This document shows positions 7,529-60,335 of a stretch of DNA of 64,000 nt, one piece after another (within the stretch, counting starts at the first letter, position 1; every line of letters starts with the position of its first letter). This DNA is from the human T2T-CHM13v2.0 reference genome, Homo sapiens. The stretch covers positions 36,000,001 to 36,064,000 of the forward strand of contig CP068257.2 of NCBI GenBank assembly GCA_009914755.4. The letters run 5' to 3'. Made by a program: the position numbers and the translations under genes. The notes beneath the pieces were generated by a model that was given only the letters and a program-made list of their open reading frames with translations, made no database searches and was not told where the DNA came from.

Positions 7529-7915
<387 letters not shown>

Positions 7916-49802: not shown

Positions 49803-50005
49803 GGGGTAGTAGGCGCCGGGGTAGCGGGAGCTGGGGTAGAGGACGCTGGGGTAGTGGGCGCCGGGGTAGCGGGGTCCGGGGTAGCGGGCGCCGGGGTAGC
49901 AGGCTCCAGGGTAGTGGGTGCTGGGGTAGCAGGAGCCAGGGTAGCGGGGTCTGGGGTAGCAGGCGCCGGGTAGCAGGTCCGGGGTAGCGGGCTCCGGGGT
50001 CGGCA
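49803..50005. repeat. GC-rich minisatellite (VNTR), about 13 copies of the 15-bp unit GGGGTAGCGGGCGCC (degenerate).
   Basis: ggggtagtaggcgcc ggggtagcgggagct ggggtagaggacgct ggggtagtgggcgcc ggggtagcggggtcc ggggtagcgggcgcc ggggtagcaggctcc agggtagtgggtgct ggggtagcaggagcc agggtagcggggtct ggggtagcaggcgcc gggtagcaggtcc ggggtagcgggctcc. Confidence 0.9.
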
Positions 50006-56699: not shown

Positions 56700-57240
56700 C
56701 ATGCCACTCTTTGCTCGACACCCTCCAGGGCTCCCCTCTCAGAGCAAAAGCTACACAAAGCTCTCCCTGGCCTGGTGCCTGTGACCTCACTCGCCTCCTC
56801 TCTGCCCACTCCCCTCCTCACCCACTGGGCTCCGCCGAGTCAGGCCTCCTTGATGCTTCTCCAAGCTTCCTTTCACCACAGGGCCTTTGCATGCAGGTCC
56901 TCTCTGCTTGGAACACTCTCTCCCTGATACCCACAGGGCTCACACCTCCTCTCACCCAGGATGGATCTAGTATTAGCTCTGCAGGGACAGCTTCCCTGAC
57001 TCCCCTATACCTCACGTACTTCACCCCCTCCAGAGCCGTGATTCCTTTCCTTTCTGCACGTCTCACTCCGACAGGCTTACTTTCTGGTTTAGTCTTTCTC
57101 TGCTCACTTGGATGTAAGCTTGGTTTACTCATGCTGTGTCCTGACTACCTAGAACACTGCAGAGCGCATAGCATGAGGGCAATAAACGACGAATGAATAA
57201 ATGAATGAATGAATAATGAATGAATGATTGAATGAAAGAA
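56700..57240 (+). mobile_element. MIR-family (ancient SINE-like) element ending in a (GAAT)n tail.
   Basis: ...cctcctctctgcccactcccctcctcacccactgggctcc...ctccaagcttcctttcaccacagggcctttgcatgcaggtcctctctgcttggaacactctctccc...ggatgtaagcttggtttactcatgctgtgtcctgactacctagaacactgcagagcgcatagcatgagggcaataaacgacgaatgaataaatgaatgaatgaat parallels the MIR-type consensus (...ctagaatgtaagctccatgagggcaggg...cacctagaacagtgcctggcacatagtaggtgctcaataaatatttgttgaatgaatgaa). Confidence 0.6.
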
Positions 57241-57634
57241 ATCTGGACAACTTACTCACTTAGGGTGGCTAAGGAGAGGTAAGGGCTGCTTTTCCCAGAC
57301 AGCCCACCCTGCACTGCCCCTGTCCCCAAGCCTTCCAGGTGGACTCATGCAGTCCTGCTCGGAGCTCCTCTGCTGCTCCGGGTTTGACTCAATCGACACC
57401 CTTCGCACCACTTTCTAAGTGTCTCCTTTGGACTGGGCCCTTGAGCCATGAGCTTTCTTTTATTTAATGTGATATTCCCAGCGTCTGGCAATGTAGCAGG
57501 GGCTCCGTTTTGAACTACTGGCCTGTGCAAAACCAAAAGTCTTTCCTTTAAGGATCTGGAGTTAATATGATGGCTGCGTCTCAGAGATGTAAAGGCCACA
57601 CAGATGAGACCTCAGAGAGGAAGGAATCAAGTTG

Positions 57635-57990
57635 GCGGGGATTTTTCCGCGAGTGGCTGCATTGGCTTTAAGAAACTGCGCCGGGCTGGGCAGCCGACGC
57701 ACCGCTAGGTGGCGCACGCGCTCGCTGCGTCTTTCAGGGCTGCAGGTACGGTGCGGGTTTCTGGTGGCGCTGACCGCGCTGGGGATGAGCACCACTGTCA
57801 TCGCGGGGACCCTCGGGCTGCGCCTCTGCCCCTCGGTCCCCAGCACCCCTGGGAGGAGCTGCTGCGATGACACCCAGTCCCTGGGCGCCGCCGCATCGCC
57901 CTGCCCTGAGCGGAATTCTCCGGCCCCAGGAGAGGCCGTGTGGCCATAAAAGGGCTGACCTCCTGATTCGGACTCCGCAGGTAGTCACTA
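57635..57990. promoter_or_regulatory. Short CpG island (orphan/intronic). It may act as a promoter-like element, for example an alternative or antisense-transcript promoter.
   Basis: CpG density is locally very high (ccgcgagtgg...ctgcgccgggctgggcagccgacgcaccgctaggtggcgcacgcgctcgctgcgtc...ggtgcgggtttctggtggcgctgaccgcgctgg...catcgcggggaccctcgggctgcgcc...ggcgccgccgcatcgcc...gagcgg) against CpG-poor surrounding sequence. A TATA-like CATAAAAGGG lies at 57944-57953. Confidence 0.5.
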
Positions 57991-58177
57991 GGGGCTTTCG
58001 CTGCTCCTGGAAGCAATTTCAAACCAGCAAGCAGGCTCTTATAGACTCTTACACCAAAAGAAGAATTTGGAGGTCCACCCCTAAACAGTCCATCACTGTT
58101 ACATTGACTCCCAAATTCCTATGCTAGAGTTACCTTAACGGCAAGCCAGACCCCTGACCCCAACCCATGTCAATAGC

Positions 58178-58205
58178 GGGGGTGGGGGTGGGGGTGGGGG
58201 TGGGG
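58178..58205 (+). repeat. (GGGGT)5 simple repeat with G-quadruplex potential.
   Basis: The tract reads gggggtgggggtgggggtgggggtgggg. Confidence 0.9.
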
Positions 58206-60000
58206 TGCGCCGACCCTGCTGCGCTTGTCAGCTTCTCTAACTGTGGCTTGGCTCCTCTGTCCTCATGTGAGCTCTGGACCAGCAATACCTGCACCCTTGC
58301 CAGCAGGTTGCAAATGCAGAACCCAGACCTCCTGAATCTGAGCCTGCATTTTAACAGGGTCCGTGGGAGATTCGTGGGCACCACAGAACTGCAGGAGTGC
58401 TGGCGGAGGGCAGGGCTGAGTGCGGAAAGGGAGATGGGCAGGCCCATGGCGTGGGGACTGACCTTTGGCACAGGGCACGTCTGAGTGCAGAAAGGGAGGT
58501 GGCAAGTCTGTGGCTTGGGGACTGACCTTTGGGTCAGCGGTGGAGAGGAAGGGTACAGGGGTCCTTTCTCCAGGAGGTGGTCCTGGCATGGGCCAGGTGT
58601 GAGTCCCGTGACCTCCAGAAGCACATGGTAGGACAGGCCGGGCAGGCCAGGTAGGCCCTAAGCTCCATCTATTAGTGCAGGAGGGAGGCCCTGCACTTTG
58701 CTCACCACTGAACTCTGCCGCCAGCCAACACCAGGCACCTGATGGATCTATGTTGGGTGAAGCAATGAAGTGGACAGCCCAGTGCCTTGTGGAAGGGACA
58801 CCAGGGAGTGCTGAGGCCTGTGGGTGGGCGTATGAGGTGCAGGGCAGCTGGCATTGGCCTGGGGGCTGTGCTCAAAGACAAACTCCATCCACTTCTGGCT
58901 GTGCACAGGGCCAGCTTGGGGAGGTAGCAAGTGGATGAGCAAAACCAGGGGAAAGCAAGGCACCAGCCAGAGCTGTGTTCTCAGCAGGGTTGTGTTGGCC
59001 CAAGTGGGGACAGCAGCCATGTCTGGAGACATTTTTGATTGTCAAACTGGAGGGGGTGCTACTGGCACTTAGAGGTAGAGGCCAGGAATGCTGCACACAG
59101 CTTGCAAGGCACAGGATGGCCCCTGCAACAGAGAGTGACCTGGCTCCAAATGCCAATAGTGCTGAGGTTGAGGAACCACGAGAGAAAGCAGCAGGCTCTG
59201 CAGGCACTGGTGGAGATTTCTAGTGCCAATAGCTCTATGTCCCCTTCCCCACCTCCACCAGTCCCCATTGGGACCTGAGACCTTATTAGGAGTGACTACA
59301 GTGCTGGTCCCAGTTGACTAGGAAGAGGGCTCCTGGTCAGGCTGACGTTGCACTCAGGAGTCTAACTGTCCAGTGGCAGAAATCGATAATTGGTTCCAGT
59401 TCCTCTCCCCAGGTGCCACGATGCTGGCAGTGCCCACCACTCTGCTGGCCTTGGACTGCAGGACTGGTCCCTCCTGTGGCTTAAGACAAGCTCCAGCTAG
59501 TCTGCTGCAGTGTGACAGCCTGGGGATGGGGAGGGAGAGGACTCCGGTACACAGCCTGGGAGATGGCTTTTCCATGGCAACAGCTCAGTTCCTGGTAGGC
59601 AGCCCTCACCTGCTCTGATCCTGCCACATATGTGCAGCTCCCTGTGTTCCATCCAGAGATCAACTTGGCCAAAAGAATTTATTTTCAGTTTTTTGGGGAA
59701 AACCAATAAAAACACCTCCAAATAGCCCTGCTTTGCCAGGAGTACCAAATCCTTGGGTTTGCAGAAATACTAACGAGTGCTTTTATTTGACCTTTCCTTT
59801 CTTCTCCTTTCCCTTTCTTTCTTCTTTCTCCCTTTTTGTTGTTGTTTGTATTTGAAATTTATGCTTTATGTTTCATATGAGTTCATCATGATGGGGCTGT
59901 TTTCCATAACATTTTTCTTTAGCAAATTTCTTCAAAGTATGTGTTAAAATTATTTTTGTTTGACTATTGCATAAGCTCCAAGAGATCAGAAACTGTTTCT

Positions 60001-60335
60001 CTCCATCCATTTATCCATTCATTCAATCCATCCATCCATCCACTTCCTCACCCATATACCCACCCACACACCAAACCATTTGTCCATCCATCCATCCATC
60101 CATCCATCCATCCATCCATCCATCCACCCACCCACCCACCCATCCATCCACCCACCCACCCATCCATCCATCCATCCACCCACCTATCCACCCACCCATC
60201 CAGTCATTTCAGTCATCCATCAGTTCACTCATTCACCCATTCATCAACCCATTCATCAACACACCCTTCTGTTCACTCATTCATACAGCCAGCCAACAAT
60301 CCATTCATCCATCCATTAATTCATTCATTGGCAAA
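60001..60335 (+). repeat. Long degenerate (TCCA)n/(CCCA)n tetranucleotide microsatellite tract.
   Basis: catccatccatccatccatcc...cacccacccacccatccatcc... continues over ~330 bp. Confidence 0.9.

What the first reader, a model, noticed from the sequence alone, without database searches (positions are those of the whole stretch)
57635..57990. Orphan CpG island deep inside the intron with a TATA-like element and possible splice donors
About 350 bp of very high CpG density stands out from otherwise CpG-depleted, repeat-rich sequence. A CATAAAAGGG box sits at 57944-57953, and GT-containing donor-like sites lie at about 57744 (CAG|GTACGG) and about 57980 (CAG|GTAGTC). Intragenic CpG islands of this kind are often alternative promoters, antisense lncRNA promoters (a KCNJ6 antisense transcript could plausibly start here) or imprinting/regulatory elements.
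Basis: partly seen in the sequence, partly recalled or inferred. Interest (0 to 1): 0.5.

Follow-up and report, generated by a model that had tools for sequence, protein, structure and literature searches.

The report
Small orphan CpG island in KCNJ6 intron
This is a genuine but ordinary small CpG island inside an intron of the human potassium-channel gene KCNJ6.

Summary
Window 57635-57990 has 33 CpGs in 356 bp, GC 67% and observed/expected CpG 0.82. The whole window has 0.20. It is the densest CpG spot in 64 kb and is not an Alu. The window is human. KCNJ6's last coding exon lies at 7529-7854 on the minus strand, so the island sits about 50 kb inside the preceding intron.

Orthologous contigs from an ape and two monkeys still carry 29-31 CpGs. 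Human CpGs inside the island survive in monkey far better than flanking CpGs (27/33 vs 14/30, p=0.004). Non-CpG divergence is equal inside and outside. This fits long-term germline hypomethylation without extra sequence constraint.

The promoter anatomy is only partly supported. CCATAAAAGG and the 57981 GT donor are absent in both monkeys, and the two are geometrically incompatible with each other. The 57746 donor (CAG|GTACGG) is decent and invariant. A CTCF-type motif (57699-57717) is the best in the window. Neither invariance exceeds chance.

I could obtain no transcript, methylation or chromatin evidence. The apparent spliced contigs proved to be assembly chimeras.

Best reading: an ordinary hypomethylated intragenic CpG island, most likely a weak promoter or factor-binding platform. 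The antisense strand is the more plausible productive direction. Interest is low.

The parts
57635..57990 (.). Core CpG island: 33 CpG, GC 67%, o/e 0.82. The CpG-rich zone extends to about 57577-58000.
   Evidence: Kept as an island in an ape (31 CpG) and two monkeys (31 and 29 CpG).
57454..57953 (.). Best 500-bp window, which meets the stricter island criteria (GC 0.596, o/e 0.77, 34 CpG).
57699..57717 (+). CTCF-type motif GCACCGCTAGGTGGCGCAC. The core CCGCTAGGTGGCGC has a CpG at core position 2.
   Evidence: Top-scoring site of the whole window (15.7 of 27.9 bits) with a matrix recalled from memory. 39 of 2000 shuffles of the island reach that score. The core is invariant in four primates, but chance invariance is about 0.28.
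57713..57722 (.). NRF1-like palindrome GCGCACGCGC, overlapping the CTCF-type motif.
   Evidence: Read from the sequence. Changed to GCGCTCGCGC and GCGCTGGCGC in the two monkeys, so not conserved.
57743..57751 (+). Donor-like site CAG|GTACGG, with the cut after 57745.
   Evidence: 9.0 bits with a recalled 5' splice-site matrix. 29 sites as good occur on the plus strand of the window. Invariant in four primates, chance about 0.44.
57944..57953 (.). CCATAAAAGG. It reads as a TATA-like box and also as a perfect CC(A/T)6GG (CArG) pattern.
   Evidence: The pattern occurs at chance frequency in the window. Both monkeys read CCAGAAGAGG.
57978..57986 (+). Weak donor-like site CAG|GTAGTC.
   Evidence: 5.4 bits, one such site per 263 bp. 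The GT is GC in both monkeys.
57459..57468 (-). Overlapping AATAAA and ATTAAA polyadenylation hexamers on the minus strand, about 170 bp beyond the island's left edge.
   Evidence: The sequence is identical in the ape and monkey A.
56791..57132 (-). Celera-era gene model hCG2007111 (EAX09695.1, 114 aa, partial). It lies on the KCNJ6-sense strand about 0.5 kb from the island.
   Evidence: No Pfam hit on record. A 1-bp indel allele changes its C-terminus and is seen in about 20 contigs. By eye it lies in a MIR-like element, but that element is not statistically confirmed (score 24.0 equals the null maximum of 24.0).
58178..58205 (+). (GGGGGT)n microsatellite, G-quadruplex-prone, 190 bp right of the island.
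   Evidence: Its length varies among human contigs, it is shorter in the ape and absent in monkey A.
7529..7854 (-). KCNJ6 terminal coding exon (aa 314-423 plus stop). It fixes the gene's orientation and the island's intronic position.
   Evidence: The Celera annotation shows a 423-aa IRK-domain gene spanning the locus on this strand.

Best explanation
A genuine, non-repeat, intragenic ('orphan') CpG island in the large intron before the last coding exon of human KCNJ6. It has been kept free of germline DNA methylation since at least the common ancestor of apes and Old World monkeys. Shown: its composition, its intronic position, its persistence as an island in four primates, and CpG decay close to the non-CpG rate inside it versus much faster decay outside it. 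Inferred: some factor keeps it unmethylated, for example CpG-binding or transcription factors, possibly CTCF at the methylation-sensitive CCGCTAGGTGGCGC site. Also inferred: it acts as a weak, probably tissue-restricted promoter with dispersed initiation that does not depend on a TATA box. The more likely productive direction is the plus strand, antisense to KCNJ6. A first exon would end at the invariant CAG|GTACGG donor (57745|57746), and no poly(A) hexamer follows for 1.9 kb. Minus-strand transcription would meet AATAAA/ATTAAA about 170 bp past the island. The human TATA-like box and the 57981 donor are not part of the conserved design.
For: The island is not an Alu or MIR, has no internal repeats and has no Rfam family. 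Searches with ORFs in three of the six reading frames found no real protein homologues. The window is human and the island is intronic to KCNJ6. The ape and the two monkeys keep 31, 31 and 29 CpGs, o/e 0.74-0.79. 27 of 33 island CpGs are kept in monkey A, against 14 of 30 flanking CpGs (Fisher p=0.004). Non-CpG divergence is 5.9% inside versus 6.5% outside. The CTCF-type motif is the best in the window. The donor at 57743 scores 9.0 bits and is invariant. The asymmetry of splice donors and poly(A) hexamers favours the plus strand. For general background, a review reports that unmethylated intragenic islands can carry promoter marks and act as promoters (PMC8873577).
Against: No transcript, CAGE, methylation or chromatin data were available, so promoter activity is pure inference. 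Non-CpG sequence in the island is no more conserved than in the flanks. Invariance of the CTCF core and the donor is expected by chance (P about 0.28 and 0.44). The island is small (33-36 CpGs), a size class that by general knowledge is often methylated in somatic tissue. GC skew runs + then - across the island, the opposite of the pattern typical of strong skewed promoters. No orthologue beyond Old World monkeys was found. The CTCF and splice matrices were recalled from memory.
Confidence: 0.4

Rival explanations
1. An architectural element only. The unmethylated island exists because CTCF, or another methylation-sensitive zinc-finger protein, occupies CCGCTAGGTGGCGC. It serves as an intragenic loop anchor or insulator, or as a Pol II pause site, without producing a stable transcript.
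For: It is the best CTCF-type match in 64 kb, at 15.7 bits. The core is identical in four primates. There is a CpG at core position 2, as in the methylation-sensitive sites of the H19 control region (established knowledge).
Against: The score is only marginally above two other sites in the window (15.6 and 15.4). 2% of shuffles of the island reach it. The invariance is not beyond chance. A single motif rarely explains a 350-bp island.
Confidence: 0.2
2. A poised-enhancer or polycomb-type orphan island. It would be unmethylated and H3K27me3-marked or bivalent in pluripotent cells, and would help the neuronal host gene KCNJ6 respond to activation. It would not be a promoter of its own gene.
For: CpG retention implies germline and early-embryo hypomethylation. 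The host is a neuronal gene. The review reports bivalent states and enhancer roles for intragenic islands (PMC8873577).
Against: There is no sequence-level test for this. The flanks show no conservation beyond neutral. No non-primate orthologue was recovered.
Confidence: 0.15
3. A sense-strand internal promoter. Transcription would run leftwards through the Celera model hCG2007111. It would either stop early or splice into the last KCNJ6 exon to give a truncated, non-channel product.
For: A Celera gene model lies on the KCNJ6 strand 0.5 kb from the island.
Against: The model's ORF has no Pfam hit and carries a frameshifting indel allele seen in about 20 contigs. By eye it lies in a MIR-like repeat. 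Minus-strand poly(A) hexamers lie about 170 bp past the island, before any good donor. A product starting at aa 314 would lack the pore.
Confidence: 0.1
4. A functionless CpG-rich patch. It meets the sequence criteria only, is methylated in most cells, and persists through slower CpG decay in GC-rich DNA or through GC-biased gene conversion.
For: There is no extra constraint on non-CpG sites. The island is small. The proposed promoter motifs are not conserved. No transcript evidence was found.
Against: Island CpGs decay about 3.8 times more slowly than flanking CpGs, close to the non-CpG rate (calculated). All four primates keep o/e of 0.74 or more.
Confidence: 0.15

Closest known systems
Orphan / intragenic CpG islands (as reviewed in PMC8873577, and described by Illingworth et al. 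2010 from my own knowledge)
   Same: It lies within a gene body, far from any exon found here. It meets the island criteria, is not repeat-derived as far as tested, and its CpGs evolve as if unmethylated in the germline. Islands of this kind are known to act as alternative or non-coding promoters, as enhancers, or to influence host-gene polyadenylation.
   Different: Activity was not shown here. The island is at the small end of the size range, and it was found only in catarrhine primates with the data reachable.
Methylation-sensitive CTCF sites in CpG-rich control regions (H19/IGF2 type)
   Same: The core CCGCTAGGTGGCGC closely resembles the CCGCNNGGNGGCAG type, with a CpG at core position 2.
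   Different: It is a single site rather than a cluster. No allele-specific methylation data are available, and there are no tandem repeats in the island.
Intronic-island promoters of antisense or nested transcripts (Airn in Igf2r; Mcts2 in H13; Nap1l5 in Herc3)
   Same: It is an intronic island in a large gene. An antisense direction is plausible from the layout of splice donors and poly(A) hexamers.
   Different: There is no evidence of imprinting, of a nested retrogene, or of any transcript. ORFs over the island have no real protein homologues.
TATA-box core promoter
   Same: Human and the ape carry CATAAAAG.
   Different: It is absent in both monkeys. It is positioned so that neither proposed donor could serve a TATA-directed start. 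Promoters in CpG islands are typically TATA-less (established knowledge).

Membership tests
CpG island (Gardiner-Garden & Frommer / UCSC criteria) | At least 200 bp, GC at least 50%, CpG observed/expected at least 0.6 | tested here: met
   356 bp, GC 0.674, o/e 0.82.
CpG island (Takai-Jones criteria) | At least 500 bp, GC at least 55%, o/e at least 0.65, and not an Alu | tested here: met
   57454-57953 has GC 0.596 and o/e 0.77. No Alu, B1 or MIR hit in the island.
Biological (non-methylated) CpG island | Unmethylated in the germline | tested here: inconclusive
   Indirect only. CpG retention in monkey is 27/33 inside versus 14/30 outside (p=0.004), with equal non-CpG divergence. No bisulfite data could be reached.
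Orphan CpG island | No annotated gene start at the island | not testable with these tools
   No current human annotation is available. It is about 50 kb from the nearest KCNJ6 coding exon found. The only nearby model is the Celera hCG2007111. KCNJ6-AS1 exists as a gene name, but no coordinates were found.
Active promoter | Transcription initiation (CAGE, 5' ends, H3K4me3) | not testable with these tools
   Public-assembly contigs over the island are all colinear genomic DNA. The two apparent junction contigs are k-mer chimeras. Contig counts show no enrichment at the island.
TATA-box promoter | A TATA element about 25-30 bp upstream of the start, conserved, with a usable downstream exon | tested here: not met
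   Both monkeys read CCAGAAGAGG. The box is 27-36 bp upstream of the 57981 donor and downstream of the 57746 donor.
SRF CArG box | CC(A/T)6GG, conserved and above chance | tested here: not met
   The pattern is present, but there are 5 matches against 7.7 expected in the window, and it is lost in both monkeys.
CTCF binding site | A strong match to the CTCF motif | tested here: met
   15.7 bits, the best of the window, reached by 39 of 2000 shuffles. The matrix was recalled from memory.
CTCF binding site | Occupancy in vivo | not testable with these tools
   No ChIP data. Invariance in four primates is uninformative (P about 0.28).
Imprinting control region / germline differentially methylated region | Parent-of-origin allele-specific methylation | not testable with these tools
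   No methylation data. The 21q allelic-methylation survey (PMC327100) is not held. No KCNJ6-specific report was found.
Known structured RNA gene | A match to an Rfam family or a tRNA | tested here: not met
   No gathering-level hit in the window and no tRNA. The only weak hit is mir-544-like, outside the island.

The most novel reading that the evidence does not exclude
The island may be a methylation-sensitive switch inside KCNJ6. When unmethylated and bound (by CTCF and/or an initiating polymerase firing antisense), it could obstruct sense elongation through the intron before the last coding exon. That could favour premature or intronic polyadenylation and C-terminally altered GIRK2 isoforms, in the way intragenic islands act at H13/Mcts2 or Herc3/Nap1l5. 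It could do so allele-specifically on chromosome 21.
Probability: 0.06. Interest if true: 0.6.

Novelty: already known. Interest (0 to 1): 0.2.

Why it matters
KCNJ6 (GIRK2) is a dosage-sensitive neuronal channel gene in the Down syndrome region, and it has C-terminal isoforms. An active island in the intron before its last coding exon could start an antisense RNA or alter how the host transcript ends. As it stands, this is one of thousands of small intragenic CpG islands in the human genome. It meets the standard criteria, so it is almost certainly already listed in public CpG-island tracks. Public CAGE, ChIP and bisulfite tracks would settle its activity in minutes. The useful result here is negative: the TATA box and the second donor are lineage-specific features and should not be used to build a transcript model.

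Tried and rejected
1. Repeat origin. BLAST with recalled Alu, B1, B2, MIR and other SINE consensi gave no hit in the island. Local alignment to MIR was no better than shuffles. There are no internal direct, inverted or tandem repeats.

2. RNA gene. Rfam and ARAGORN found nothing. A relaxed Rfam scan gave only a sub-threshold mir-544-like hairpin outside the island.

3. Coding exon or retrocopy. ORFs in three of the six frames gave only orthologous spurious ORFs from primates. The weak hit P0024 is a tandem-repeat artefact.

4. Splice evidence from public assemblies. Contigs L011 and L012 join foreign sequence exactly at 58175-58177 with ...CAG|CGGGG, which looks like an acceptor. The foreign locus (L019, L020) natively carries the same 33-nt AGC(GGGGGT)n string, so these are k=31 assembly chimeras. 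L013 is a low-coverage chimera.

5. Enrichment of this locus among public contigs as a proxy for open chromatin or expression. Counts range from 3 to 265 and track ORF length, not the island.

6. Deeper orthologues. The protein-word search, the full HMMER search and a JGI metagenome scan returned only an ape, two monkeys and human contaminants.

7. Literature. Nothing specific to this island turned up. KCNJ6-AS1 was found only as a gene name. LOC105372798 lies between DYRK1A and KCNJ6, outside the window. Searches by guessed coordinates were empty. The chromosome 21q allelic-methylation paper is not held.

8. SRF/CArG and NRF1 readings. Both are at chance level and/or not conserved.

Full report
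**What is there.** Window 57635-57990 contains 33 CpGs in 356 bp, with GC 67.4% and CpG observed/expected 0.82. The window as a whole has o/e 0.20, with 622 CpGs in 64 kb.
- The island accounts for the nine 200-bp windows richest in CpG. The kilobase that holds it has 48 CpGs, against 1-29 elsewhere.
- The best 500-bp window (57454-57953) has GC 0.596 and o/e 0.77. Both the loose and the strict island definitions are therefore met.
- The other stretches that pass o/e 0.6 are Alu copies. One more CpG-rich spot, 49803-50000, is a 15-bp minisatellite.
57944-57953 reads CCATAAAAGG, and the GT dinucleotides of the two donor-like sites start at 57746 and 57981.

**Where it is.**
- The window carries about 14 Alus.
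- It is 99.8-100% identical to many human-derived contigs in public assemblies, including a human-gut-metagenome contaminant. It is 99.2-99.6% identical to two human chromosome 21 assemblies.
- The last coding exon of KCNJ6 (aa 314-423, ending ESKV, stop) lies at 7529-7854 on the minus strand, behind a canonical acceptor.
- The Celera annotation shows the 423-aa IRK-domain gene spanning the locus on that strand.
- The island is therefore about 50 kb inside the intron that precedes the last coding exon.

**What it is not.**
- It has no Rfam family at gathering score and no tRNA.
- It has no Alu, B1, B2, MIR or other SINE match. A local alignment to MIR is no better than shuffles.
- It has no internal repeats.
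- ORFs in three of the six reading frames have no relatives apart from the orthologous spurious ORFs of other primates.

**Evolution.** Spurious ORFs over the island are present in the public protein collection. This let me pull orthologous DNA from three other primates.
- One is an ape-like contig, L015, 98.1% identical.
- One is a monkey contig, L016. It has 6.7% mismatches, a level I take as typical of an Old World monkey.
- One is a second monkey, L031-L033, about 4-5% diverged from the first.
- All three keep the island, with 31, 31 and 29 CpGs and o/e 0.74-0.79.
- 27 of 33 human island CpGs are intact in monkey A, against 14 of 30 CpGs in the 2.5 kb of flanks (Fisher p=0.004). Non-CpG sites diverge equally, 5.9% inside and 6.5% outside.
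- Island CpGs therefore decay at close to the ordinary rate, while flanking CpGs decay several-fold faster. This is the signature of long-term germline hypomethylation. It is not a signature of purifying selection on the sequence.
- No orthologue outside catarrhine primates was recovered. This is weak evidence at best, because those searches depend on open reading frames.

**The proposed promoter anatomy.**
- CCATAAAAGG is both TATA-like and a perfect CC(A/T)6GG pattern. That pattern occurs at chance frequency in the window, 5 matches against 7.7 expected. Both monkeys read CCAGAAGAGG.
- The 57981 donor scores 5.4 bits with a recalled matrix, and such sites occur every 263 bp. It reads GC in both monkeys.
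- The box lies 27-36 bp upstream of that donor, so a TATA-directed start would leave almost no exon. The other donor lies upstream of the box. The TATA box and the donors therefore do not form a coherent unit.
- The 57746 donor (CAG|GTACGG) is respectable at 9.0 bits, one per 2.2 kb, and is invariant in four species.
- A CTCF-type motif at 57699-57717 is the best in the window. It scores 15.7 bits and 2% of island shuffles reach that score; the matrix was recalled from memory. Its core is also invariant.
- With 91% of island columns invariant, such runs are expected by chance (P about 0.44 and 0.28).
- An overlapping NRF1-like GCGCACGCGC is broken in both monkeys.

**Direction.**
- On the plus strand, the island contains the 57746 donor. 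Further donors follow at 58594 and 58648, and the first AATAAA is at 59705.
- On the minus strand, overlapping AATAAA and ATTAAA hexamers lie at 57459-57468, about 170 bp past the island, before any good donor.
- By the established splice-donor/poly(A)-signal logic of promoter directionality, the antisense (plus) direction is the more plausible productive one. This is inference only.
- A Celera-era model, hCG2007111, lies at 56791-57132 on the sense strand. Its ORF has no domain hit and carries a frameshifting 1-bp indel allele seen in about 20 contigs. By eye it lies in a MIR-like repeat, which is not statistically confirmed. I give it little weight.

**Transcript evidence.** None could be obtained.
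- Two contigs (L011, L012) appeared to splice foreign sequence onto 58177 after a ...AG. The foreign locus natively contains the same 33-nt AGC(GGGGGT)n string (L019, L020), so these are de Bruijn-graph chimeras.
- Another contig (L013) is a low-coverage chimera.
- All other contigs are colinear genomic DNA that ends at repeats.
- Contig counts show no enrichment at the island.
- The literature searches found nothing specific to this island.

**Verdict.**
- This is an ordinary small intragenic CpG island that has behaved as unmethylated in the germline for tens of millions of years.
- General knowledge of such islands says they can be non-coding or alternative promoters, enhancers, or modulators of host-gene polyadenylation (PMC8873577).
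- On that basis the most likely role is a weak TATA-independent promoter or factor-binding platform, with antisense the better-supported direction (confidence about 0.4).
- The alternatives are a CTCF-only element, a poised-enhancer island, a sense-strand internal promoter and a functionless patch.
- The kind is well known, and the element almost certainly already appears in public island tracks. Interest is low, and public CAGE, ChIP and bisulfite tracks would decide the matter.

Noticed in passing
window 49803-50000: A GC-rich 15-bp minisatellite, GGGGTAGCGGGCGCC x 13.3 copies, 76% matches. It is the second most CpG-dense spot of the window (17 CpG in 200 bp, GC 74%) and lies about 8 kb from the island.
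   Followed up: partly
window 58178-58205: A (GGGGGT)n microsatellite, G-quadruplex-prone. Its length varies among human contigs, it is two units shorter in the ape and absent in monkey A. It shares a 33-nt string with an unrelated human locus, and this produces chimeric contigs in public assemblies (L011, L012).
   Followed up: yes
window 58288-58371 (minus strand): A sub-threshold match to the mir-544 precursor family (38.9 bits against a gathering score of 66.5, E=7.6e-6). It may be a decayed copy of a repeat-derived hairpin; the repeat origin was not tested.
   Followed up: no
window 58407-58532: A tandem duplication of a 64-bp unit (2.0 copies, 83% matches) inside a GC-rich but CpG-poor block that runs from about 58300 to 59600.
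   Followed up: no
window 56791-57132 (minus strand): The Celera gene model hCG2007111 (EAX09695.1, 114 aa, partial) on the KCNJ6 strand. A 1-bp deletion allele that extends the ORF is present in about 20 public contigs. By eye the ORF lies in a MIR-like element that ends in the (GAAT)n array at 57191-57240.
   Followed up: partly
window 58122-59207 (minus strand); L014 10001-11089: One human chromosome 21 assembly (CP034500.1) carries an uninterrupted 362-codon ORF here, and the collection lists it as a protein. In the window the same frame is broken by stops. The sequence is Pro/Ser/Gly/Ala-rich, so this looks like a chance ORF in GC-rich DNA.
   Followed up: partly
window 60002-60202: A long (TCCA)n microsatellite, 50 copies at 77% matches, with extreme C-over-G skew. 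Many public contigs break here.
   Followed up: no
window 7529-7854 (minus strand): The KCNJ6 terminal coding exon (aa 314-423, PDZ-binding ESKV end), behind a canonical acceptor. It confirms the gene and its orientation.
   Followed up: yes
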